In this document: piece after piece, positions 51,805-62,645 of the stretch
Layout of the letters: the number at the start of each line of letters is the position of its first letter
Numbering within the stretch: position 1 is the stretch's first letter
From: Escherichia coli O127:H6 str. E2348/69
Lineage (GTDB): Bacteria; Pseudomonadota; Gammaproteobacteria; Enterobacterales; Enterobacteriaceae
DNA: 64,000 nt
Direction: 5' to 3' (one strand)
Assembly (NCBI RefSeq): GCF_000026545.1
Contig: NC_011601.1
Position numbers and translations under genes: made by a program
Notes under the pieces: generated by a model
What the model saw: only the letters and a program-made list of their open reading frames with translations
Told to the model about the DNA's origin: nothing
Databases searched by the model: none

Positions 51805-52341
51805 ATGCGTCGCGCTAACGATCCGCAACGGCGAGAAAAAATTATCCAGGCCACGCTGGAGGCGGTGAAACTTTACGGAATACATGCTGTTACACACCGC
51901 AAAATTGCTACCCTTGCCGGGGTGCCGTTGGGATCGATGACCTACTATTTTTCAGGCATTGATGAGTTGTTGCTGGAGGCGTTCAGCCGTTTTACTGAGA
52001 TCATGTCCCGGCAATATCAGGCATTTTTTAGCGATGTTAGTGATGCTCCAGGCGCATGCCAGGCTATCACCGATATGATCTACAGCTCACAGGTCGCAAC
52101 GCCGGATAATATGGAGCTGATGTACCAGCTCTACGCGCTGGCTAGCCGAAAACCGCTATTAAAAACGGTAATGCAAAACTGGATGCAGCGCAGTCAACAA
52201 ACGCTCGAACAATGGTTTGAACCCGGAACCGCCCGCGCGCTTGATGCGTTTATTGAGGGGATGACGCTGCATTTTGTCACCGACCGTAAGCCGCTATCAC
52301 GCGAGGAGATTTTGAGGATGGTTGAGAGGATTGCTGGGTAG
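51805..52341 (+). CDS. rcdA: TetR-family transcriptional regulator RcdA
   Basis: Start trimmed to [10 protein letters not shown]... (178 aa); N-terminal TetR HTH. Confidence 0.9.
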
Positions 52342-52445
52342 TAGATAAATTTCAGGCAACAAAAAACCCATTTATGTAAACGGGTTAATGAAAACAATAA
52401 CTTAGAGTAAAAACAATAAGTTGGGTTGGTGGTCAGTGGTGGTTA

Positions 52446-53498
52446 TTACGGGGTAATGCCAACCGCTGCCGCCACTTTGTCGCCACTTGGCAGCGTTGCC
52501 AGAGGATTGAAACGGAGCGCCGTTTCCAGATGATCCGGTGCCAGATGTGCGTAACGCATAGTCATTTTTATATCGTGGTGTCCGAGAATTTTTTGTAAAG
52601 CCAGAATGTTTCCACCCGACATCATGAAGTGCGCCGCAAACGTATGGCGCAGAACGTGTGTGGGTTGACCGCGAGGGAGCACGATAGACGTTTTTTCCAT
52701 CACGGATAAAAATTGAAAATAGCAGTCTGTGAAGAAATTGAACCCATCAAGCGCCATGATCTCTTCGTAAAGCTCTTTACTGATAGGGATGCTTCTGTTT
52801 TTCTTCCCCTTCGCTCTTACAAAGGTAATTCGGTATTTGGTCACCTGTGAGCGGGTAAGATTTACGTCTTCTCGCCAGCGTGCGCCTGTGCTTAAGCATA
52901 TCTTAACTACCAGTGCCAGAATTGGGTCCTGACGTTTGCAATCAGCTAGTAATTCAACAATCTGCTCATGGGTAAGCCATGCCATCTCTTTTTCTGCGAT
53001 GGTGAATTTTCGCATGTTCTCCAGTGGGTTCGGATACGACCATTCGCCCAGGCGGGATAGTTCGCTAAAAACACTACTTAGATAGCTTTGCTCCAGGTTA
53101 ATGGTGACCGGGCTTGCTCCTTTCTTCCATTTCTCACTGAAGTAGATCTCACCTGTCAGGCGTTTATCTCGATAGTGGGCAAACATTTTAGAGGTTAGAT
53201 CAGTTGCAAGGGGATTGCCCAGAGCGTCAACCATCAGCAGCAATTTGTCATAGACATGCTGCCCAGCAGTCAGAGATTTACCATGTAGTTTGAACCATAG
53301 CTCAACCACGTCTTTCAGTGTTCGACGATCCACTGATTCACCCAGCCAGGGCTTTGCTTCGGTTTCTTCCATCGTGTGACGCTCAAAAGCCAGTGCTTCG
53401 CCTTTGGTGGCGAATTGTTTACGCACACGACGCCCACTACGTCCGGCGGGGTAACATTCGCAAAGCCATTTTCCTGTGGTGAGTTTTCGTACTGCCAT
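52446..53498 (-). CDS. int: phage integrase (tyrosine recombinase, P2/186 type)
   Basis: 350 aa; N-terminus MAVRKLTTGKWLCECYPAGRSGRRVRKQFATKGEALAFE and catalytic-domain motifs (LSTGARW, LRHTFAAHFMMSGGNILALQKILGH, MRYAHLAP) match recalled 186 Int. Confidence 0.9.
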   Translation of the reverse strand: MAVRKLTTGKWLCECYPAGRSGRRVRKQFATKGEALAFERHTMEETEAKPWLGESVDRRTLKDVVELWFKLHGKSLTAGQHVYDKLLLMVDALGNPLATDLTSKMFAHYRDKRLTGEIYFSEKWKKGASPVTINLEQSYLSSVFSELSRLGEWSYPNPLENMRKFTIAEKEMAWLTHEQIVELLADCKRQDPILALVVKICLSTGARWREDVNLTRSQVTKYRITFVRAKGKKNRSIPISKELYEEIMALDGFNFFTDCYFQFLSVMEKTSIVLPRGQPTHVLRHTFAAHFMMSGGNILALQKILGHHDIKMTMRYAHLAPDHLETALRFNPLATLPSGDKVAAAVGITP

Positions 53499-53584
53499 AA
53501 TAAAGCCCTCATATCAGAGGGCTAAATTTAACTGTATGTTTGACCAGTGGTCAATGTATGGTTTAGTTTATTCAAACAATGCTT

Positions 53585-55102
53585 TTAATCAAATGATGTG
53601 GCCAGTTCAATTAATTCAATGTAATTATGTAAGGCATAAAAAGATGTATTCAGACCATTCTCTATAAGGGCTCCTTGCAAATACTTTATAGCTGTATCAC
53701 CATCAATAGGGCCTTGTTGAGATATAATCATTAGTGAATTTTGCCCATTGTTTTTTATACTTGATTTAAGCATGTTTATATTATTAATAAAATACAATGC
53801 AACATCTAAGTAATTTATTAATGTTAAATTTATTTTGGGCTCAATCTGTGAGATGAATAATCTACTGCTCGCCGTTCTATAGATATAATTGACACCTATT
53901 CTTTGCTGATTTGTATCAAGATTTAATTCAAGGATGGCTTGAGAAACACCTTTTAAATTGGAGCTTTGCTTTATCGAATCAGTGAAACGTTGTGCTGCAT
54001 TTCTTCGACCAATTAGTCCATCTATAATTTGACGTTCCTTATCATATATAATCATTAGCGAAATTATAAAAATATAATCTACTTTCTTTTTGACTAAATC
54101 AGATTTAAGAATGTCTATTAACCTTTCAGTATTTCGGATTGAGTCTCTTAGATTTAACCCAAATGCTTCAAATACGTTGGAAATATTTATTGAAAAGTCT
54201 TCTAATGTTGCTGTTAGTGGGTGTGTTTTTGATGTGATATTTTCAAAATCGGTACCAATATAATCACCAACAACACCATTAATTAAATCTTTAAGCTCAG
54301 GTTGTTTTAAAGTAAATCTTCTATGAAAAAAACGGCCTAAATAGTCATTTGCGGAAAAATCATTACCGTAAACATTCTTGATTGAATGTTGTAATTGATC
54401 TGTGTCAGTAGCAATAATAAAGACAAAATTTTTAATATCGAATATATGTTTAACAATCTCTAAAAGAGAAATTGCATAATCTGGCCTGCATCTGTCTAAT
54501 TCATCTATAAAGATAAATATAGGACATGAAAAACTATTTTCATATGCCAACCTAGACCATAACGTTAGTTCTTTTTTTAATACCTTAATGCTCTTCAGTT
54601 TTTCCTGGTGTTCCTTCAGCATTATTAATGAGGCTTCTTTGGCTATATCACCTACGTTATCTACTCCTGCATAAGTCTTGATTAGGCCAGATATGATTTC
54701 AGGTAGAACACCTTTTGTAAAGCGTCCGATAGCATGGCCGCTTTGTATCAATCGAGCATCAAGTTTTCCTGCATATGTTTGCAATTGTTGTGACAAAGAA
54801 GAAAAAAGGGTTAAAAATGCATCATCAGAAAAGTCTTGCTTCCAGGCATCAATGTAAACGCATGGGTGTGCATCTTTTATTGAGTTATAAAATCTCTTTA
54901 TGAAAAAACTTTTACCAGCTCCCCATTCTGCATTAAGGTTGATTACCGTGTTGTTCTTTTGCCCCTTTTCCTTAAGATAAAAATATAGATATTCTGCATA
55001 GTGTCTCCGATTAAGTTTGTCTTTGGAAAGAATTTCCTCTTCGTCGTCTAATATAAAGGTAGTTTCTTCATCCCAGTTCCAATTACAATCACCACATTTC
55101 AC
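53585..55102 (-). CDS. KAP-family P-loop NTPase (prophage cargo; candidate anti-phage protein)
   Basis: 505 aa; GTG start with GGAGA RBS; Walker A AEWGAGKS (res 58-65) and Walker B IFIFIDELDRC typical of KAP NTPases; long Asn/Ile/Lys-rich C-terminal region; AT-rich. Confidence 0.7.
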   Translation of the reverse strand: MKCGDCNWNWDEETTFILDDEEEILSKDKLNRRHYAEYLYFYLKEKGQKNNTVINLNAEWGAGKSFFIKRFYNSIKDAHPCVYIDAWKQDFSDDAFLTLFSSLSQQLQTYAGKLDARLIQSGHAIGRFTKGVLPEIISGLIKTYAGVDNVGDIAKEASLIMLKEHQEKLKSIKVLKKELTLWSRLAYENSFSCPIFIFIDELDRCRPDYAISLLEIVKHIFDIKNFVFIIATDTDQLQHSIKNVYGNDFSANDYLGRFFHRRFTLKQPELKDLINGVVGDYIGTDFENITSKTHPLTATLEDFSINISNVFEAFGLNLRDSIRNTERLIDILKSDLVKKKVDYIFIISLMIIYDKERQIIDGLIGRRNAAQRFTDSIKQSSNLKGVSQAILELNLDTNQQRIGVNYIYRTASSRLFISQIEPKINLTLINYLDVALYFINNINMLKSSIKNNGQNSLMIISQQGPIDGDTAIKYLQGALIENGLNTSFYALHNYIELIELATSFD

Positions 55103-55127
55103 TATGAAGTCTCCATGAAAAATTTAC

Positions 55128-56051
55128 TTAATGTAAACAACTTATAATAACTTTTGCAATAAACTCAATGTCTGTAAGCGAACATTCAAAAGAGTGATTT
55201 TGGGATGAAATATAAACTCGTCCTTTAGGTAGTCGAGTTATCATTCTAAATGAATTCTCTCCATCAATATTTACTAGCCACTTACCATCATGTACATCTT
55301 TAAAACCCATTTCACATATTAATTCAGAGTCTTCGGTAGATACTACGAATGCATTTTTTAAATTGGAAGGTAGAAAGCATGGGTCAAATAAATATGAGCC
55401 ATCATTTATTAACTTGCCATTGATTAATACTTTTTTCACTAATGTTAAAGTATCTTTATTTTTTGCGTTTTTCATTTCTCCTGTACCAAATGAAATCCAT
55501 TCAATAGAATGGCCCGTTTCTATTGCACACTGCAAAACCCAGTCTGCAGGAAAAATGTCACGCATGTATCGTGTGGCTAATGTGCTTTTTGAAATACCTA
55601 GGTGATCAGCTAATGCTTGGCGCGTTTTGTAACCGTAAGCCTCGACAATTCGTTCTATTGTTGCCTTACCCCCTCGGTTAAAATTCATGAGTTTTTCATT
55701 ATCGAACTTTATAGTGGGAATGTATACTTCATTGCAAAGGCCATTAACGGCATGTTTTTCAGAATATTGCTCTGATGAAGGAGCAGTATCTGAACCAAGA
55801 ACTAACCATTCAATTGATGCTCCTGTTTCTATGGAACATATAACAACCCAATCTGCAGGAAAGGTATTACGTGCATATCTGTTGGCCATAGTACTTTGGG
55901 AAATACCTAGATGATTACATAATGCCTGTCGTGACTTGAAGCCATAGGCTAGGAGTATACGCTCAATAACTTTTTGCCCTCCACGATTCTGCATAACTAT
56001 TGCTTTCAGATCGTTTTTGATATGGCTAAATTTTAATTTTTGAGTTGACAT
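55128..56051 (-). CDS. CI-like repressor paralog with tandemly duplicated N-terminal DNA-binding domain
   Basis: 307 aa; residues ~20-85 and ~120-190 are two copies of the domain (IERxxxAYGxKxRQALxxHLGISxSTxAxRYxRxxFPAxWVxxCxxETGxSxxWL) found once in the adjacent CI; C-terminal domain is paralogous to the CI C-terminus. Start could alternatively be the Met at residue 20. Confidence 0.75.
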   Translation of the reverse strand: MSTQKLKFSHIKNDLKAIVMQNRGGQKVIERILLAYGFKSRQALCNHLGISQSTMANRYARNTFPADWVVICSIETGASIEWLVLGSDTAPSSEQYSEKHAVNGLCNEVYIPTIKFDNEKLMNFNRGGKATIERIVEAYGYKTRQALADHLGISKSTLATRYMRDIFPADWVLQCAIETGHSIEWISFGTGEMKNAKNKDTLTLVKKVLINGKLINDGSYLFDPCFLPSNLKNAFVVSTEDSELICEMGFKDVHDGKWLVNIDGENSFRMITRLPKGRVYISSQNHSFECSLTDIEFIAKVIISCLH

Positions 56052-56101
56052 ATTTTTTACACCACAACAAATGCTTTACCAAGCATAAAAACATTCCTAT
56101 A

Positions 56102-56677
56102 TTACTCAAAGTACTTAACTGTTATGCTTATAATTTTTCCAATAATTTCGATTTCTTCTTTTTTACATTCGAAAGCCCTATTTCCACCTTCAACTAAGAT
56201 TCTTCCACCAGGTAAACGAGTGATATCGCGGATTGTTACTTCGGCATCAATACTTATTACCCATTTGCCGTCACGAATATCGTTAAACTCTTTATCGCAA
56301 ATAAAAACGGAATTGTTATCGGTGATTACAAACGGATTTTTGAGCGTAGATGGTAGAAATTCTTTATCGAAAATATAAAAACCATCTTCCTGCAAGGTTC
56401 CATCAGATAATACATATTTAACGACTTCCATAGTATTTGTATTACCTGAAGTTTGCTTTGAACCATGTCCGGTCGTGAGCCAGTTAAGCGAGGCGCCCGT
56501 TTCAAGTGCGCACTGGATTACCCATTCAGCAGGGAATGAGTCACGCATATAGCGTGTGGCGAGAGTACTTTTAGAGATTCCTAAGTGATCGCACAACGCC
56601 TGTCGAGTCTTGAAGCCATATGCTTCTACCATGCGCTCTATAGCGCCTCGTCCGCCTTTCTCCAAACTCATGGTCAC
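56102..56677 (-). CDS. cI: prophage immunity repressor CI (186 type)
   Basis: 191 aa; divergent from the apl/cII operon; N-terminal domain resembles recalled 186 CI (...AYGF...CALETGA..W..TG); start may be the ATG at 56671 instead. Confidence 0.75.
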   Translation of the reverse strand: MTMSLEKGGRGAIERMVEAYGFKTRQALCDHLGISKSTLATRYMRDSFPAEWVIQCALETGASLNWLTTGHGSKQTSGNTNTMEVVKYVLSDGTLQEDGFYIFDKEFLPSTLKNPFVITDNNSVFICDKEFNDIRDGKWVISIDAEVTIRDITRLPGGRILVEGGNRAFECKKEEIEIIGKIISITVKYFE

Positions 56678-56796
56678 TCCAAGTGAACTTTTGTCTTGAC
56701 GATTTCATTATGCGATCGCATGTTTATGGTGTTCACAAAATGCAAACGATCCGTATTCGTCCTGATTAATCAACATTAAACGAGGAATGTTGCATC
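56678..56796. promoter_or_regulatory. prophage immunity switch region (early lytic promoter and candidate CI operators)
   Basis: Divergent intergenic region with TTGACG -35-like hexamer (56696-56701), perfect 12-bp palindrome ATGCGATCGCAT (56710-56721), and flanking inverted repeat GTGAAC...GTTCAC (56683-56688 / 56731-56736). Confidence 0.45.
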
Positions 56797-57018
56797 ATGA
56801 AACCTAACATTTCAATCACTCTTACCACGCCTCATGTGACTATTGAACGTTATAGCGAGCTGACAGGGCTATCCATCGATACTATCAATGACATGTTGGC
56901 TGATGGACGTCTTATCCGTCACCGTCTGCGGAAAGATAAAAAACGCGAAAAAGTGATGATCAACATAGCAGCCATGACCGTTGATGCGCTTTCAGAATGC
57001 AATCTAAACCTTAATTAG
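56797..57018 (+). CDS. Apl/Cox-like HTH excisionase-regulator
   Basis: 73 aa; first gene of the rightward operon with GAGGAA RBS; position matches 186 apl / P2 cox. Confidence 0.55.
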
Positions 57019-57050
57019 TTCGATTCTGAAATACATCAGAGGCATTGACC

Positions 57051-57560
57051 ATGTTTGATTACCAAGTTTCCAAACACCCGCATTTTGATGAAGCCTGTAG
57101 AGCTTTTGCACTTCGTCACAATATGGCGAAGCTGGCAGAACGTGCAGGAATGAATGTCCAGACTCTGCGAAACAAACTCAACCCAGATCAACCGCATCAG
57201 CTCAATGCGCCAGAAATCTGGCTGCTTACCGATCTGACTGAAGATTCAACGCTGGTAGATGGCTTTCTGGCACAGATTCACTGCCTGCCATGTGTACCGA
57301 TTAATGAGGTGGCAAAAGAGAAACTGCCGCATTACGTCATGAGTGCAACTGCAGAGATAGGGCGTGTCGCGGCAGGTGCGGTTTCTGGCGATGTAAAAAC
57401 CAGTGCAGGCCGTCGTGATGCGATCAGCAGCATTAACTCTGTTACACGACTGATGGCGCTGGCTGCTGTTTCATTGCAGGCCCGTTTACAGGCTAATCCT
57501 GCGATGGCGAGTGCAGTTGATACCGTGACTGGCCTCGGTGCTTCATTCGGTTTGCTGTGA
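57051..57560 (+). CDS. cII: CII-like lysogeny establishment regulator (186 type)
   Basis: Start trimmed to [45 protein letters not shown]...; closely matches recalled 186 CII over its full length. Confidence 0.85.
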
Positions 57561-57567
57561 GGTGCTT

Positions 57568-57768
57568 ATGCTGACGAAAGAACCATCATTTGCATCGCTG
57601 CTGGTAAAACAAAGTCCGGCAATGCACTACGGTCACGGCTGGATCATGGGTGAGGATGGTAAACGCTGGCATCCGTGCCGTTCACAAGATGAATTGCTGG
57701 CAGAACTATCAACGAAAAAACGGGGGAACCAATGGCTATTGAAGGCGCTGCGGCGACTGTTCCATTAA
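57568..57768 (+). CDS. hypothetical phage early protein
   Basis: 66 aa from MLTKEPSF...; sits where 186 carries fil; no recognisable motif. Confidence 0.4.
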   Translation: MLTKEPSFASLLVKQSPAMHYGHGWIMGEDGKRWHPCRSQDELLAELSTKKRGNQWLLKALRRLFH

Positions 57769-58073
57769 GCCCCGGTGAACGCCTGAATGGACTTAATCAT
57801 ATTGCGGAATTAAGAGCGAAAGTTTTTGGCCTGAATATTGAGTCAGAGCTTGAGCGGTTTATTAAAGATATGCGTGATCCACGGGATATCAATAATGAAC
57901 AAAATAAACGGGCACTGGCTGCCATATTCTTTATGGCAAAAATTCCAGCTGAACGTCATAGCATCAGCATTAATGAGCTGACCACTGACGAAAAGCGGGA
58001 GCTGATTAAAGCAATGAATCATTTTCGTGCAGTGGTGAGCTTATTTCCCAGACGGCTAACCATGCCGAATTAA
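57732..58073 (+). CDS. hypothetical phage early protein
   Basis: 113 aa ORF in the early operon; start uncertain (overlaps previous gene by 37 nt). Confidence 0.4.
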   Translation: MAIEGAAATVPLSPGERLNGLNHIAELRAKVFGLNIESELERFIKDMRDPRDINNEQNKRALAAIFFMAKIPAERHSISINELTTDEKRELIKAMNHFRAVVSLFPRRLTMPN

Positions 58074-58140
58074 CCAACTAATGAAATTCATGGCGTAAAC
58101 CCGCCAGGCATCCCTTTATCTAAATTCAGGAGAATTGATT

Positions 58141-58374
58141 ATGCGTAATATTGAAACCCTCACGACTAAAACCGGACCGGATGATGCAGGGCTTAATATT
58201 TTACTGACAGAGGCTCGTCTGGAAGAACGCCGGGCAAGGGCTGAAGCAATGGCAGCTCGCCTTGATAGCCTGGCGTGTCATATCACATCCCGCCAGCTAA
58301 ACCACGTCGAAGCGGCAGAACTGCTGCGTGTGACTGCTGAAGCAATCCAGAACGAAGCGCAGGAGATCCACTGA
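58141..58374 (+). CDS. hypothetical phage early protein
   Basis: 77 aa from MRNIETLTTK...; CAGGAGAA RBS 6 nt upstream; stop overlaps next start (TGATG). Confidence 0.5.
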   Translation: MRNIETLTTKTGPDDAGLNILLTEARLEERRARAEAMAARLDSLACHITSRQLNHVEAAELLRVTAEAIQNEAQEIH

Positions 58375-58601
58375 TGGCTGATGCAATGGATCTCGTACAG
58401 CAGCGCGTTGAAGAAGAACGCCAGCGTCATATCCGTGCTGCCCGCGCCAAAACGCCGGGCGTATCCCGCGTGCTTTGCATTGAGTGTGAAGCACCAATTC
58501 CGCCAGCACGACGTCGCGCCATTCCGGGTGTGCAGCTTTGCATTACCTGTCAGGAAATCGCAGAGCTGAAAGGCAAACATTACAACGGAGGTGCTGTATG
58601 A
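58374..58601 (+). CDS. phage TraR/DksA-family C4 zinc-finger protein
   Basis: 75 aa; CIECEAPIPPARRRAIPGVQLCITCQ is paralogous to chromosomal YbiI (CEECGAPIPQARREAIPGVRLCIHCQ). Confidence 0.75.
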   Translation: MADAMDLVQQRVEEERQRHIRAARAKTPGVSRVLCIECEAPIPPARRRAIPGVQLCITCQEIAELKGKHYNGGAV

Positions 58602-59455
58602 GCACCATCCTGAAATGGGCGGGTAATAAAACCGCCATTATGCCAGAACTGAAAAAATACCTTCCTGCTGGCCCGCGACTGGTTGAACCTTTCGCGGGTT
58701 CTTGTGCTGTGATGATAGAGACGGATTACCCCAGCTATCTTGTTGCGGATATTAATCCTGATTTAATCAACCTCTATAAAAAGGTTGCTGCTGATTGCGA
58801 GGCGTTTATATCTCGTGCCAGAGCTTTATTTGAGGAAGCAAACAGGGAGGTGGCTTATTACAACATAAGGCAGGAGTTTAATTACTCCACTGAAATTACT
58901 GATTTCATGAAAGCGGTATATTTCCTGTATCTCAATCGTCATGGTTACCGTGGGTTATGTCGCTATAACAAGAGCGGGCATTTCAACATTCCCTACGGGA
59001 ATTATAAAAATCCGTATTTCCCTGAAAAAGAAATTCGCAAATTTGCAGAAAAAGCCCAGCGAGCAACGTTTATCTGCGCCAGCTTTGATGAAACGCTGGC
59101 GATGTTGAAGGCGGGGGATGTGGTGTATTGCGATCCGCCTTATGACGGTACGTTTTCCGGCTATCACACTGATGGCTTCACTGAGGATGACCAGTATCAC
59201 CTGGCATCCGTTCTTGAACATCGATCATCTGAAGGTCATCCGGTCATTGTTTCTAACAGTGACACATCCCTGATTCGTTCGCTGTATCGCAATTTCACTC
59301 ACCACTACATCAAGGCAAAACGCAGCATCGGCGTGTCGGCTGGCGAGAGTAAATCTGCAACAGAAATCATTGCTGTTTCCGGGGCGCGCTGCTGGGTGGG
59401 ATTTGATCCTTCGCGTGGCGTGGATAGTTCTGCTGTGTACGAGGTGCGTGTATGA
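58598..59455 (+). CDS. dam: phage DNA adenine methyltransferase (Dam-like)
   Basis: 285 aa from [12 protein letters not shown]... with GGAGG RBS; FAGSCAV SAM-binding motif and DPPY catalytic motif. Confidence 0.85.
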
Positions 59456-61866
59456 GTCATGATGATATGAGCAACTCTAGCGGCTTTAACGAGGCCGCTG
59501 CAGCATTTTCATGGAACGGCCCGAAAAAGGCCATTAACCCTTATCTGGATCCGGCGGAAGTTGCGCCGGAGTCTGCACTTTCAAACATGATCACTCTGTA
59601 CGCTGCCGATAACGAGCAGGAACAGCTGCGCCGCGATGCACTGAGTGAGCAGGTCTGGGAGCGTTATTTCTTTAATGAATCCCGTGATCCTGTCCAGCGC
59701 GAAATGGAGCAGGATAATCTCATTAGTCGGGCAAAGCTGGCGCATGATCAGCAGCGTTTTAACCCGGACATGGTCATTCTGGCGGACGTCAGCGCCCAGC
59801 CCACCCACATCAGCAAGCCGCTGATGCAACGTATCGAATACTTCAGCAGCCTGGGCAGGCCAAAGGCTTATTCCCGCTATTTGCGTGAGACGATTAAGTC
59901 ATGTCTGGAGCGACTGGAGTATGTACGCGACAGTCAGCTATCCGCTTCTTTCCGTTTTATGGCAAGCCATCAAGGGCTTGAGGGCCTGCTGATCCTGCCT
60001 GAAATGAGTCAGGATCAGGTAAAACGCCTGTCCACCTTGGTAGCAGCGCATATGAGCATGTGTCTTGAGGCCGCTTGTGGTGATTTGTATGCCTCCGATG
60101 ACGTTAAGCCAGAAGAAATCCGCAAGACATGGGAAAAGGTGGCAGCGGAAACCCTGCGTCTGGATGTTATCCCGCCTGCGTTTGAGAAACTCCGTCGGAA
60201 AAGAAACCGCCGCAAACCCGTGCCCTATGAACTCATACCGGGTTCGCTGGCACGTATGCTTTGCGCCGACTGGTGGTATCGAAAATTGTGGAAGATACGT
60301 TGCGAATGGCGGGAAGAGCAGTTGCGTGCTGTCTGCCTGGTCAGCAAAAAAGCATCTCCCTATGTCAGCTATGAAGCAGTGACGCATAAACGTGAGCAGC
60401 GCCGCAAGTCGCTGGAGTTTTTCCGTTCTCATGAACTGGTGAACGAAGACGGCGACACGCTGGATATGGAAGACGTGGTAAACGCCAGCAGCAGCAACCC
60501 GGCGCACCGCCGCAATGAGATGATGGCCTGTGTTAAAGGTCTGGAGCTTATCGCGGAAATGCGTGGTGACTGCGCCGTTTTCTACACCATTACCTGTCCG
60601 TCACGTTTCCATTCTACGCTCAATAACGGCAGACCAAACCCAACCTGGACAAATGCGACGGTAAGACAAAGCAGCGATTATCTGGTCGGCATGTTTGCTG
60701 CATTTCGTAAGGCTATGCACAAAGCCGGGTTGCGCTGGTATGGCGTGCGGGTGGCTGAGCCGCACCATGACGGTACTGTGCACTGGCATCTCATGTGTTT
60801 CATGCGCAAAAAAGACCGCCGCGCCATTACTGCATTGTTGCGTAAGTTTGCCATCCGTGAAGACCGCGAGGAACTGGGCAATAACACGGGTCCACGCTTT
60901 AAGTCTGAGCTGATAAACCCGCGCAAAGGAACGCCGACAAGCTACATCGCGAAATACATCAGTAAGAACATTGACGGACGTGGTCTGGCTGGCGAGATCA
61001 GCAAGGAAACGGGTAAATCCCTGCGTGATAACGCCGAATACGTTAATGCCTGGGCGTCTCTGCATCGTGTTCAGCAGTTCCGCTTCTTTGGTATTCCGGG
61101 GCGTCAGGCGTACCGTGAACTTCGCTTGCTGGCTGGTCAGGCGGCAAGGCAACAGGGTGACAAAAAAGCAGGTGCGCCGGTACTGGATGACCCGCGCCTT
61201 GATGCCATCCTGGCTGCCGCTGATGCTGGCTGTTTTGCCACCTACATCATGAAGCAGGGCGGCGTACTGGTTCCCCGCAAATATCACCTTATCAGAACAG
61301 CTTATGAAATTAACGAAGAGCCGACCGCTTATGGCGATCACGGTATTCGTATTTATGGCATCTGGTCACCCATTGTACAGGGCAAGATCTGCACTCATGC
61401 AATGAAATGGAAAATGGTTCGTAAGGTCGTTGACGTTCAGGAGGCGGCAGCCGACCAGGGCGCTTGCGCCCCTTGGACTCGTGGCAATAACTGTCCCCTT
61501 GCTGAAAATTTGAACCGACAGGAGAAAGATAAATCAGCTGATGGGGACCCCAGAACGGACATTACCCGCATGGATGACAAGGAGTTACACGATTACCTGC
61601 ACAGTATGAACAAAAAGGAGCGCCGGGAACTGGCTGCAAGGTTACGTCTGGTGAAACCGAAACGGCGTAGAGACTACAAACAGCGAATTACAGACCATCA
61701 ACGACAGCAGCTCGTCTATGAACTGAAATCCAGAGGATTTGATGGCAGCGAGAAAGAGGTCGATTTACTCCTTCGCGGCGGCAGTATTCCGTCAGGAGCT
61801 GGCCTGCGTATCTTCTATCGGAACCAGCGTTTGCAGGAAGATGATAAGTGGCGGAACCTGTATTAA
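59452..61866 (+). CDS. A: phage replication initiation protein A (HuH rolling-circle endonuclease)
   Basis: 804 aa; HuH motif (VHWHLMCF) followed later by tyrosine-containing region ([10 protein letters not shown]); positional equivalent of P2/186 gene A. Confidence 0.8.
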
Positions 61867-61959
61867 TTACGCTGGTTAACAATTCGTGCTCTTAATAATA
61901 CCAGGCATATCAGGCTGATAAGCGTAAAAAAAACGTTTTACATCAGTAAGATTATTATA

Positions 61960-61979
61960 TACTGTAAATATAAACAGTG
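61960..61979 (+). promoter_or_regulatory. LexA (SOS) box
   Basis: TACTGTAAATATAAACAGTG fits CTGT-N8-ACAG, 40 bp upstream of the 62021 ORF. Confidence 0.75.
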
Positions 61980-62020
61980 GTTATACATACAGCATTGTGT
62001 GTGGTGTCATAGGAGGAAAG

Positions 62021-62209
62021 ATGCAGGACTATTTTTTGGAGTCTTTGAAGCTCCAGCGCATTGATTTTTTTCTTAAGCTTGTAGCGGCTAGTGAGTGTAG
62101 TGATGAAGAGAAGGGGCTGGCTCTGCAGTGGGTTTCTGAATTGACTGATGAACTTATGGCAAAAATCAGAAGCCACGAATACAACCGCTCAATGGATGTC
62201 ATCAGCTGA
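62021..62209 (+). CDS. SOS-controlled small protein (positional equivalent of the 186 Tum antirepressor; function unverified)
   Basis: 62 aa from MQDYFLESLK... with AGGAGG RBS; directly downstream of the LexA box. Confidence 0.5.
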   Translation: MQDYFLESLKLQRIDFFLKLVAASECSDEEKGLALQWVSELTDELMAKIRSHEYNRSMDVIS

Positions 62210-62219
62210 GGTGACTTTT

Positions 62220-62453
62220 ATGCGCATTGAAATAATGATCGATAAAGAGCAGAAGATTAGCCAGTCTACCCTGGACGCCCTTGAATCCGAGCTTTACCGC
62301 AATCTGCGCCCCCTGTATCCCAAAACGGTAATTCGCATTCGCAAAGGTAGCTCTAACGGTGTGGAACTAACCGGACTGCAACTGGATGAAGAAAGAAAAC
62401 AAGTGATGAAAATTATGCAGAAGGTGTGGGAGGACGACAGCTGGCTGCATTAA
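62220..62453 (+). CDS. DinI-family protein
   Basis: 77 aa MRIEIMIDKEQ...IMQKVWEDDSWLH resembles DinI; GAGGTG RBS. Confidence 0.75.
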   Translation: MRIEIMIDKEQKISQSTLDALESELYRNLRPLYPKTVIRIRKGSSNGVELTGLQLDEERKQVMKIMQKVWEDDSWLH

Positions 62454-62645
62454 GAAACGTTGCCCCCAGGAGGATTCATTCTGATGGGGGCTAGTTTGGG
62501 CAATGAGTGAAATAAGGCGTAAGGTGGGCGGTTATTTTGATAAGTGATCGTCCGCTTTGTGTCAGAAGCAGAAGTGGGAGTGTCTGAGACTCTCTAAAAG
62601 TTGATGATTCACTTACAAAACCATTTTCCTGATGAATGCTTACAC

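What the first reader, a model, noticed from the sequence alone, without database searches (positions are those of the whole stretch)
58598..59455. Prophage-encoded orphan Dam-like methyltransferase
A D12-class N6-adenine methyltransferase (DPPY motif) sits just upstream of replication gene A with no restriction partner visible. In a host that is presumably already Dam+, a second GATC-type methylase could protect phage DNA or shift host epigenetic regulation; its specificity is unknown.
Basis: partly seen in the sequence, partly recalled or inferred. Interest (0 to 1): 0.3.

Follow-up and report, generated by a model that had tools for sequence, protein, structure and literature searches.

The report
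Known phage Dam methylase gene
This is an intact, already-annotated phage copy of the Dam (GATC adenine) DNA methylase. It sits in the lytic replication operon of a 186/Fels-2-type prophage of E. coli E2348/69, is the same kind of gene described with the retron-Ec67 prophage in 1990, and is ordinary.

Summary
Window 58598..59455 (+) is a 285-aa D12-class N6-adenine methyltransferase with a DPPY motif, and RefSeq annotates it as "DNA adenine methylase".

It lies in the early lytic operon of a 34-kb 186/Fels-2-like prophage. Its start overlaps the stop of a TraR/DksA zinc-finger gene, and its stop overlaps the start of replication gene A. No restriction enzyme is nearby.

It is 45.5% identical to E. 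coli Dam and keeps the listed GATC-contact residues except N120 (Arg here), so GATC specificity is predicted with good confidence. Near-identical genes occur in 1238 of 5426 complete E. coli genomes and in Fels-2, RE-2010 and many Klebsiella phages.

The prophage matches the 1990 description of the retron-Ec67 element in size, 26-bp flanking repeats and a dam gene.

The gene most likely acts only during lytic growth, keeping fast-replicating phage DNA fully methylated. It probably does not reprogram the lysogen. In support, Dam-carrying P2-family phages have host-like GATC density (observed/expected about 0.8), while Dam-less P2, 186 and PSP3 avoid GATC (0.13-0.22).

Novelty: already known. 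Interest is low.

The parts
58598..59455 (+). Phage dam gene: 285-aa D12-class (alpha-type) N6-adenine DNA methyltransferase, predicted G(m6A)TC specificity
   Evidence: PF02086 E = 2.8e-77. TIGR00571 325 bits. 45.5% identity to EcoDam (PDB 2G1P, E = 2e-73). Median dN/dS 0.14 against 73 homologues.
59132..59143 (+). Codons for catalytic motif IV, DPPY (residues 179-182)
   Evidence: D/P/P/Y are conserved in 111-112 of 113 clade members.
58587..58591 (+). GGAGG Shine-Dalgarno sequence, 6 nt upstream of the dam ATG
   Evidence: Read directly from the sequence.
58374..58601 (+). TraR/DksA-type C4 zinc-finger gene; its stop overlaps the dam start (ATGA)
   Evidence: PF01258 E = 3.1e-11. phrog_54 E = 1.4e-30. 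Homologous to nonessential genes of 186 and P2.
59452..61866 (+). Replication gene A (rolling-circle initiator nuclease); its start overlaps the dam stop (ATGA)
   Evidence: PF05840 E = 5.8e-128. The same ATGA junction links orf84 and A in 186, and the 186 record notes that translation to the end of orf84 appears necessary for translation of A.
56797..58374 (+). Upstream part of the early lytic operon: apl-like gene (56797-57018), cII (57051-57560), fil (57568-57768), DUF5347 (57732-58073) and DUF2732 (58141-58374)
   Evidence: The gene order matches the pR operon of phage 186.
56102..56671 (-). 186-type CI immunity repressor, expected to keep the dam-containing operon silent in the lysogen
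   Evidence: PF07022 and PF16452. RefSeq 'phage repressor protein CI'. Repression of pR by CI is documented for 186 and inferred here.
56672..56796 (.). Divergent switch region between cI and apl (expected pR/pL); contains GATC sites at 56714 and 56748
   Evidence: A TTGACG hexamer lies at 56695-56700. Promoters were not mapped; the consensus scan found only a minus-strand candidate at 56735-56707.
52346..52371 (.). attL: left copy of the perfect 26-nt direct repeat TAAATTTCAGGCAACAAAAAACCCAT that bounds the prophage. The right copy lies 34,143 bp away, outside the window.
   Evidence: L001 4347-4372 and 38490-38515.
63361..63379 (+). Putative cos cohesive-end sequence GGCGTGGCGGGGATACGAG, preceded by a conserved block of about 135 bp that holds two conserved GATC sites (63265, 63276)
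   Evidence: The sequence is identical in Fels-2 and RE-2010 and resembles the 186 and P2 cos ends.

Best explanation
The gene encodes a phage-borne orphan Dam enzyme. It is an AdoMet-dependent N6-adenine methyltransferase that most probably methylates GATC, the same site as the host Dam.

It is one of several interchangeable, nonessential cargo genes that P2-family phages carry in the slot between the DksA-like zinc-finger gene and replication gene A.

It is transcribed as part of the CI-repressed early lytic operon and is translationally linked to both neighbours. It is therefore made together with the replication initiator when the prophage is induced or on infection, and not in the stable lysogen.

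Its likely job is to add methylation capacity while phage DNA replicates faster than the limited host Dam can follow, so that replicating and packaged genomes are fully methylated at GATC. That would spare the phage from whatever acts on un- or hemi-methylated GATC:
- MutH nicking,
- SeqA binding,
- MboI/DpnII-type restriction in the next host.

Shown here: the gene, its family, the motifs, the conserved contact residues, the operon position, purifying selection, and the link between Dam carriage and GATC content. Inferred: GATC specificity, expression limited to lytic growth, and which host factor is being evaded.
For: Family and catalytic competence:
- PF02086 E = 2.8e-77.
- TIGR00571 325 bits against a cut-off of 114.85.
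- E = 2e-73 to EcoDam crystal structures.
- DPPY, the AdoMet-binding Asp (D54 equivalent) and the F-x-G core of motif I are present.

Specificity:
- EcoDam K9, Y119, L122, R124, P134 and Y138, and the phosphate contacts R95, N126 and N132, are identical here and in 110-113 of 113 clade members.
- PMC4417163 assigns the roles: R124 reads Gua4, L122 and P134 read the third base pair, Y119 intercalates, and K9 and Y138 read the first base pair.
- The 34-kb retron-Ec67 element, flanked by 26-bp repeats and carrying a dam gene, was reported in 1990 to encode 'Dam methylase functions' (title and description cited in PMC7826664). This prophage has a perfect 26-nt flanking repeat 34,143 bp apart.
- The Fels-2 record links its homologue to an E. 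coli HS protein annotated 'retron EC67 DNA adenine methylase'.

Expression:
- The gene order apl-cII-fil-...-zf-dam-A matches the pR operon of 186.
- ATGA overlaps occur at both ends. The same junction links orf84 and A in 186, where coupling is recorded.
- No plus-strand sigma-70-like promoter was found upstream.
- Fels-2 dam (STM2730) and A (STM2729) change expression together with late genes (PMC3844500).
- Other prophage methyltransferases in E. coli were silent in lysogens (PMC4659465).

Real, selected gene:
- Median dN/dS is 0.14 over 73 comparisons.
- It is present in 1238 of 5426 complete E. coli genomes and in 77 of 80 related viral contigs.

Benefit:
- GATC observed/expected is 0.76-0.79 in this prophage, Fels-2 and RE-2010, with a median of 0.80 in 77 Dam-carrying loci.
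- It is 0.13-0.22 in the Dam-less phages 186, P2 and PSP3, with a median of 0.335 in 76 Dam-less 186-like loci.
- The contrast holds within homologous genes: A, portal plus terminase, and the tail block.
- The depletion is specific to GATC apart from CTAG, which is generally rare; the other six 4-bp palindromes tested are near expectation.
- HP1 and K139, which carry other methyltransferase families, score 0.63 and 0.58.
- Published work reports under-methylation of fast-replicating phage DNA and MutH-linked counter-selection of GATC (PMC5014478). The same role has been proposed for T4 and T2 Dam (PMC8541194).
Against: - No activity, specificity or expression data were obtained for this gene here. 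The 1990 paper is not in the library, and its protein sequence could not be compared directly.
- Two contact residues differ from EcoDam throughout the clade: N120 is Arg and R137 is Asn or His. There is also a 5-residue deletion after DPPY, and the last Gly of motif I is Cys. Altered flanking preference or relaxed specificity is therefore not excluded.
- The GATC/Dam association rests on few independent lineages, essentially Fels-2-like against 186-like and P2-like, plus HP1 and K139. It is a correlation.
- Two Fels-2-like contigs lack dam altogether yet have normal GATC content, 0.78-0.80. So the gene is dispensable at least in the short term.
- This particular prophage has an inverted baseplate/tail-fibre block and a truncated S-like gene. 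It may be unable to make virions.
Confidence: 0.78

Rival explanations
1. Lysogenic conversion: the methylase is expressed from the resident prophage and changes the host's epigenetic state, through extra Dam dosage or a new motif, and so alters gene regulation in the lysogen.
For: Extra Dam dosage is known to matter for E. coli physiology (general knowledge). The prophage carries GATC sites in its own switch region at 56714 and 56748. The gene is very common in E. coli, in 1238 of 5426 genomes.
Against: The gene lies between cII/fil and A in the operon that CI represses in 186-type phages. No promoter of its own was detected. The predicted motif is the one the host already methylates at about 99.9% of sites (PMC6602927). 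Comparable prophage methyltransferases were transcriptionally silent in lysogens (PMC4659465). The cargo genes that P2-family phages do express in lysogens sit in other slots, such as int-cI and cos-portal.
Confidence: 0.06
2. Anti-restriction as the main purpose: the enzyme exists to protect packaged DNA from GATC-cleaving, methylation-sensitive restriction systems (MboI/DpnII type) in the next host, rather than from MutH or SeqA in the current one.
For: The outcome is the same as in the best explanation, namely fully methylated virion DNA. Orphan phage methyltransferases are shown to protect against restriction in other systems (PMC4190342, listed). The family spans many Enterobacterales genera, consistent with host switching.
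Against: All known hosts of this family are Dam+ enterics, so most sites are methylated anyway. GATC avoidance in Dam-less relatives has been linked to mismatch-repair components rather than to restriction enzymes (Deschavanne and Radman 1991, as described in PMC5014478).
Confidence: 0.2
3. Different or relaxed specificity: the enzyme methylates something other than, or more than, GATC, as some phage adenine methylases do.
For: Clade-wide substitutions occur at two EcoDam DNA-contact positions: N120 to Arg and R137 to Asn/His. There is a 5-aa deletion after DPPY and a conserved extra C-terminal tail with W266, G268, D270, G274 and D276. The protein fails the host-Dam equivalog model, 288.6 bits against a cut-off of 441. 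First-base-pair contacts are known to vary within the Dam family (PMC4417163).
Against: The residues that read base pairs 3 and 4 and that intercalate (R124, L122, P134, Y119), and K9 and Y138 for base pair 1, are invariant or nearly so. The sibling gene was reported as a Dam methylase. T4 Dam also differs at the N120 position yet is GATC-specific (my own memory of the literature).
Confidence: 0.08
4. The reading frame matters mainly as a translated leader that delivers ribosomes to gene A, and the enzyme activity itself is incidental or decaying.
For: In 186, translation to the end of the upstream ORF appears necessary for A translation (record note). The ATGA junction is kept whatever gene occupies the slot. 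E282 and V283 are conserved where the codons form the Shine-Dalgarno sequence of A.
Against: Median dN/dS is 0.14 across the whole protein. Catalytic and DNA-contact residues are near-invariant in 113 homologues down to about 70% identity. In the dam-less relatives L057 and L083 the zinc-finger gene performs the coupling, so an 858-bp leader is not required.
Confidence: 0.05

Closest known systems
Dam methylase of the retron-Ec67-carrying 186-related prophage of E. coli Cl-1 (Hsu, Inouye and Inouye 1990; Dodd and Egan 1996)
   Same: As described in PMC7826664, that element is 34 kb, is flanked by 26-bp direct repeats and contains a dam gene. This prophage has a perfect 26-nt flanking repeat 34,143 bp apart and a dam gene. 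From my own memory of the 1990 paper, not checked here, its Dam ORF is 285 residues and 44% identical to E. coli Dam, and the element maps at 19 min. Here the ORF is 285 aa and 45.5% identical, and the insertion lies between rcdA (ybjK) and ybjL. The Fels-2 record notes similarity of its homologue to a protein annotated 'retron EC67 DNA adenine methylase'.
   Different: This prophage carries a ShosTA pair instead of a retron in the cos-proximal cargo slot. The Ec67 protein sequence and the original paper were not available, so exact identity was not measured.
Fels-2 STM2730 and Salmonella phage RE-2010 Dam (Felsduovirus), and Klebsiella ST11/ST258/ST512 prophage Dam
   Same: The gene is 858 bp in each, in the same zf-dam-A arrangement. 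Nucleotide identity is 94.9% to RE-2010 and 99.4% to the Klebsiella phages. The cos sequence is the same. The early region is 94.7% identical to RE-2010 over 5.4 kb.
   Different: The immunity region (int, cI, apl) and the cargo genes differ. The late region is only 75-87% identical, and one block is inverted.
E. coli host Dam (EcoDam, PDB 2G1P)
   Same: Same fold family and motif order, 45.5% identity, and the same GATC-reading residues apart from N120.
   Different: It fails the host-Dam equivalog model. N120 is Arg, R137 is Asn, there is a 5-aa deletion after DPPY, and the conserved C-terminal tail is about 20 aa longer. It is phage-borne and under lytic control rather than a housekeeping gene.
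Other phage-encoded Dam enzymes: T4/T2 Dam, P1 Dam, VT2-Sa/933W Dam, HP1 Dam
   Same: All are orphan GATC adenine methylases made by phages of Dam+ hosts. The role is generally proposed to be efficient methylation of rapidly replicating phage DNA (PMC7556043; PMC8541194).
   Different: T4 Dam is only distantly related, E = 3e-18. The HP1 and K139 enzymes are much smaller proteins, 173 and 205 aa, located elsewhere in the early region. From my own memory, P1 uses Dam methylation of its pac site for packaging; no such dependence is shown here.

Membership tests
Dam family / D12-class N6-adenine DNA methyltransferase (PF02086, TIGR00571) | Full-length match to the family profile above the curated threshold | tested here: met
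   PF02086: 260.3 bits against 22, profile positions 1-253 of 253. TIGR00571: 325 bits against 114.85.
Dam family / D12-class N6-adenine DNA methyltransferase (PF02086, TIGR00571) | Catalytic motif IV (D/N)PP(Y/F) | tested here: met
   DPPY at residues 179-182, aligned to EcoDam 181-184 and conserved in 111-112 of 113 homologues.
Dam family / D12-class N6-adenine DNA methyltransferase (PF02086, TIGR00571) | AdoMet-binding motif I (FxGxG) and the acidic residue equivalent to EcoDam D54, N-terminal to motif IV (alpha order) | tested here: met
   F32-A-G34-S-C36 aligns to EcoDam F35-V-G37-A-G39. The last Gly is Cys in all 113 clade members. D51 aligns to D54. The order is motif I, then the DNA-recognition hairpin, then motif IV.
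Dam family / D12-class N6-adenine DNA methyltransferase (PF02086, TIGR00571) | Residues that read GATC in EcoDam (K9, Y119, N120, L122, R124, P134, Y138) | tested here: met
   Six of seven are identical and near-invariant in the clade. N120 is Arg in all members. Residue roles come from PMC4417163.
Dam family / D12-class N6-adenine DNA methyltransferase (PF02086, TIGR00571) | Methylation of adenine N6 in GATC | not testable with these tools
   Needs expression in a dam-negative host with DpnI/MboI digestion, or SMRT/nanopore methylome analysis.
Host housekeeping Dam (NCBIfam equivalog NF008152 / PRK10904) | Score above the equivalog cut-off | tested here: not met
   288.6 bits against a cut-off of 441. 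This is a paralogous phage lineage, not the chromosomal dam. The chromosomal gene is a separate locus present in 5425 of 5426 genomes.
Type II restriction-modification system | A cognate restriction endonuclease gene next to the methyltransferase | tested here: not met
   The neighbours are a DksA/TraR zinc-finger protein and GpA. No nuclease is annotated in the 34-kb prophage other than GpA and the terminase. PADLOC's best model is 'orphan methyltransferase'.
186/Fels-2-type P2-family temperate phage (Peduoviridae) | Integrase, 186-type CI, Apl/Cox-like gene, CII, Fil, GpA, P2-type cos, portal/terminase and tail genes, Ogr/B-type late activator, flanking att repeats | tested here: met
   gene content; 26-nt att repeats; cos; collinear with RE-2010 except for one inverted block.

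The most novel reading that the evidence does not exclude
The phage Dam may do more than maintenance. Two GATC sites, 96 and 85 bp left of the cos cut, lie inside the conserved cos recognition block of about 135 bp, next to TGCATG repeats. They are conserved across most of 72 distinct Dam-carrying relatives, while 186 and P2 have no GATC at the homologous positions. Methylation by the phage enzyme could therefore gate terminase binding or cos cleavage, as Dam methylation of pac does in phage P1. That would tie packaging to the phage's own methylase.
Probability: 0.06. Interest if true: 0.5.

Novelty: already known. Interest (0 to 1): 0.13.

Why it matters
As a gene it matters little. It is correctly annotated, very common, and belongs to a family whose first member was described with the retron-Ec67 prophage in 1990.

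Its practical relevance is modest. It explains why methylome studies of E. coli lysogens find "extra" Dam homologues that add no new motif. It also warns that dam-negative hosts carrying such prophages could regain GATC methylation on induction.

The more useful by-product is comparative. Within one phage family, lineages that carry a GATC methylase have host-like GATC density, and lineages without one avoid GATC five-fold. This gives a clean natural contrast for testing the old idea that under-methylated GATC sites are costly to fast-replicating phages.

Tried and rejected
1. I asked whether M.EcoMIV, the prophage 'Dam homolog' of ST131 strain EC958 (PMC4659465), is the same gene. The EC958 region I fetched ended in Mu-like genes (Mor, gp16) and showed no P2-like genes, so the link was not established and I dropped it.

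2. The 1990 PNAS paper (PMC55184) is not held. The link to retron Ec67 therefore rests on secondary citation, element size, the 26-nt repeats, my own recollection of the ORF length and map position, and a database note.

3. A cluster of four GATC sites in 105 bp next to cos was considered. About 0.75 such clusters are expected by chance in this prophage (my estimate). Only two of the four sites are conserved, and 186 and P2 lack them. I kept this only as the low-probability novel reading.

4. GATC density in the prophage is not unusual relative to the host: O/E 0.76 against 0.74. There is no enrichment or avoidance in this genome itself.

5. The promoter and terminator scan found no plus-strand promoter for dam and fewer hits than in shuffled sequence. 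A hairpin in early A (59550-59570), at the position of the 186 terminator tM1, folds no better than shuffles, z = -0.22.

6. An Rfam scan of 52000-64000 found nothing.

7. Structure prediction was not run. With 45% identity to a crystal structure it would add nothing.
Full report
**Observation**

The window is E. coli O127:H6 E2348/69 (NZ_LT827011.1), positions 800001-864000. A search hit at 858598-859455 matches the finding's coordinates plus 800000, and the fetched record is identical to the window over the overlap.

The ORF runs from ATG 58598 to TGA 59455 and encodes 285 aa. A GGAGG sequence lies 6 nt upstream of the start. The ATG overlaps the stop of the upstream gene (ATGA), and the stop overlaps the ATG of gene A (ATGA). 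RefSeq annotates exactly this interval as "DNA adenine methylase".

The protein matches its family strongly:
- Pfam PF02086 (D12-class N6-adenine methyltransferase): E = 2.8e-77 over the whole profile.
- NCBIfam TIGR00571 "dam": 325 bits against a cut-off of 114.85.
- E. coli Dam crystal structures: E = 2e-73.
- DPPY lies at residues 179-182.

**Surroundings**

The gene sits in a prophage bounded by a perfect 26-nt direct repeat, at window 52346-52371 and again 34,143 bp downstream. The prophage is inserted between rcdA (ybjK) and ybjL.

The gene order is: integrase, a KAP-type NTPase, two CI-like genes, then rightward apl-like, cII, fil, DUF5347, DUF2732, a TraR/DksA zinc-finger gene, dam, A, a small ORF and a DinI-like gene. 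These are followed by cos, a cargo slot, portal/terminase and the late genes, ending with an ogr/B-type activator.

This is the architecture of phage 186 and Fels-2. In the 186 record the equivalent rightward genes form the pR early lytic operon, which CI represses. Neither the neighbours nor the rest of the prophage encode a restriction enzyme. PADLOC's best model for the protein is "orphan methyltransferase".

The chromosomal dam gene is a separate locus, present in 5425 of 5426 complete E. coli genomes.

**A variable cargo slot**

The slot between the zinc-finger gene and A holds different genes in different phages:

| Phage | Genes between the zinc-finger gene and A |
|---|---|
| P2 | orf83 |
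| 186 | three genes annotated "not essential" (a DnaQ-like exonuclease, a DUF5405 protein, a PAPS-reductase-like protein) |
| PSP3 | gp35 |
| Fels-2, RE-2010, this prophage | dam |
| Fels-2-like contigs L057 and L083 | nothing; the zinc-finger gene abuts A |

Whatever occupies the slot ends in an ATGA overlap with A. The 186 record notes that translation to the end of the upstream ORF appears necessary for translation of A.

Dam is therefore an optional passenger that is made together with the replication initiator.

**Predicted activity**

The protein is 45.5% identical to EcoDam. PMC4417163 assigns roles to the EcoDam residues:
- R124 reads the guanine of the fourth base pair.
- L122 and P134 contact the third base pair.
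- Y119 intercalates.
- K9 and Y138 recognise the first base pair.
- N120 makes a base hydrogen bond.

Six of these seven are identical here and in 110-113 of 113 homologues. The same holds for R95, N126 and N132, which I recall as phosphate contacts.

Several differences from EcoDam are shared by the whole clade:
- N120 is Arg.
- R137 is Asn or His.
- The last Gly of motif I is Cys.
- Five residues are missing after DPPY.
- There is a longer C-terminal tail with conserved W266, G268, D270, G274 and D276.

GATC is the expected target. A subtly different flanking preference cannot be excluded. Median dN/dS is 0.14 over 73 comparisons, so the protein is under purifying selection.

**How it relates to what is known**

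The gene is common:
- ≥99% identical copies in nine phage records (Klebsiella prophages ST11, ST258, ST340, ST437 and ST512).
- About 95% identity in Salmonella phage RE-2010 and many Klebsiella phages.
- Present in 1238 of 5426 complete E. coli genomes.
- The exact protein was seen on at least 1000 contigs.

PMC7826664 describes the same zf-dam-A block in a K. pneumoniae Fels-2-like prophage. It recalls that retron Ec67 lies in a 34-kb element flanked by 26-bp direct repeats and encoding a Dam methylase (Hsu et al. 1990). It also recalls that the retron replaced DNA next to cos in a 186-related prophage (Dodd and Egan 1996).

This prophage has the same size and the same repeat length. From my memory of the 1990 abstract, not checked here, that Dam ORF is 285 residues and 44% identical to E. 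coli Dam, and the element maps at 19 min. That would fit the 285 aa, the 45.5% identity and the rcdA-ybjL insertion site found here. The Fels-2 record notes similarity of its homologue to a protein annotated "retron EC67 DNA adenine methylase".

This prophage is therefore a retron-less sibling of that element. Its cos-proximal slot holds a ShosTA pair instead. The original paper is not in the library, so I could not compute the exact identity.

**Most likely function**

The operon position argues for expression during lytic growth only. In Salmonella, Fels-2 dam and A changed expression together with late genes (PMC3844500). Other prophage methyltransferases in E. coli were silent in lysogens (PMC4659465). 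In the lysogen the enzyme would add nothing, because about 99.9% of GATC sites are already methylated (PMC6602927).

The published rationale for phage Dam enzymes is that host Dam cannot keep pace with phage replication. Unmethylated GATC is then exposed to MutH and other factors. GATC is counter-selected in enterobacteriophages (PMC5014478; PMC8541194).

I tested a prediction of that idea within the P2 family, using the ratio of observed GATC count to the count expected from trinucleotide frequencies:

| Group | Carries a methylase? | GATC observed/expected |
|---|---|---|
| This prophage | dam | 0.76 |
| Fels-2 | dam | 0.76 |
| RE-2010 | dam | 0.79 |
| 77 Dam-carrying viral contigs | dam | median 0.80 (range 0.67-0.97) |
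| 186 | none | 0.13 |
| P2 | none | 0.20 |
| PSP3 | none | 0.22 |
| 76 Dam-less 186-like contigs | none | median 0.335 (range 0.17-0.69) |
| HP1 | other methylase family | 0.63 |
| K139 | other methylase family | 0.58 |

The depletion in 186 and P2 is essentially specific to GATC. Of the seven other 4-bp palindromes tested, only CTAG, which is generally rare, is also low. The contrast holds inside homologous genes: A, portal plus terminase, and the tail block.

This is what one expects if carrying a Dam relieves the cost of GATC sites. It remains a correlation over few independent lineages. The two dam-less Fels-2-like contigs with normal GATC content show that loss is tolerated at least briefly.

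**Rivals**

- Lysogenic epigenetic reprogramming is unlikely, for the reasons given above.
- Anti-restriction against MboI/DpnII-type systems gives the same molecular outcome and cannot be separated from the MutH/SeqA model here.
- A non-GATC or relaxed specificity is possible but disfavoured by the conserved contact residues.
- A pure "leader for A" role is contradicted by purifying selection on catalytic residues and by relatives in which the zinc-finger gene does the coupling.

**Caveat for this strain**

Relative to RE-2010, the block carrying V-W-J-I and the 5' part of H is inverted, and the S-like gene is annotated as truncated. This prophage may therefore be unable to form particles, even though dam and the early region are intact.

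**Verdict**

The feature is real and correctly identified, and it belongs to a well-known kind. The specific gene family has been in the literature since 1990 and is routinely annotated. Interest is low. The only mildly new element is the clean link between Dam carriage and GATC content within the P2 family.

Noticed in passing
window 63510-64000, continuing outside the window to L001:17050 (equivalent to window 65049): A ShosTA-like defence pair fills the cargo slot between cos and the portal gene. The phosphoribosyltransferase-like ShosT (191 aa) scores PADLOC 3.7e-14 and the DprA-like ShosA (324 aa) scores 2.8e-70. This is the same slot where retrons Ec67 and Ec86 sit in sibling prophages.
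   Followed up: partly
window 53585-55102 (-): A KAP-family P-loop NTPase (505 aa) lies between the integrase and cI. It matches the PADLOC candidate defence family PDC-S20 (5e-78), with weaker matches to PifA and QatA.
   Followed up: partly
window 55128-56051 (-): A 307-aa CI-like protein with two tandem Phage_CI_repr helix-turn-helix domains plus one CI C-terminal domain sits directly beside the ordinary 191-aa CI (56102-56677). This second, duplicated-HTH repressor paralogue has no PADLOC match and its role is unknown.
   Followed up: no
whole genomes L003-L007, L168, L169; loci L008-L167: Within the P2 family, GATC is five-fold depleted in phages without a methylase (186 0.13, P2 0.20, PSP3 0.22). 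It is near host level in those with one (this prophage 0.76, Fels-2 0.76, RE-2010 0.79, HP1 0.63, K139 0.58). The contrast holds in homologous genes and, apart from the generally rare CTAG, is specific to GATC among 4-bp palindromes.
   Followed up: yes
L057:5406-5640 and L083:5586-5813: Two Fels-2-like viral contigs lack dam entirely; the zinc-finger gene directly abuts or overlaps gene A. They still have normal GATC content (0.78-0.80). This points to recent loss, or to insertion of dam as a discrete cassette.
   Followed up: partly
window 63230-63379: A block of about 135 bp left of the putative cos cut is conserved across 72 distinct relatives. It contains repeated TGCATG/GCATGA motifs, probably terminase sites, and two conserved GATC sites (63265, 63276). 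Sequence further left is unalignable cargo. 186 and P2 share the TGCAT repeats but have no GATC there.
   Followed up: partly
L001:25370-29217 (equivalent to window 73369-77216, outside the window): The baseplate/tail-fibre block (V, W, J, I and the 5' part of H) is inverted relative to RE-2010, and the adjacent S-like morphogenesis gene is annotated as truncated. A DNA invertase gene lies nearby. The prophage may be defective.
   Followed up: partly
protein cluster; P0056 and P0060: The 90%-identity protein cluster containing this Dam also contains 804-aa GpA proteins. The likely cause is that some assemblies call fused Dam-GpA products (Pfam PF02086 plus PF05840 on one protein). This looks like a clustering artefact of the ATGA overlap or of frameshifted assemblies.
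   Followed up: no
window 59001-59028 (-): A sigma-70-like promoter match (TTTTCA, 16-nt spacer, TATAAT; 10 of 12) lies on the antisense strand inside dam. The region had fewer promoter-like hits than shuffled controls, so this is probably chance.
   Followed up: no
window 56714 and 56748: Two GATC sites lie in the 125-bp cI-apl switch region. One falls in the spacer after a TTGACG hexamer that could be the -35 element of pR. Whether methylation affects the switch is unknown.
   Followed up: no
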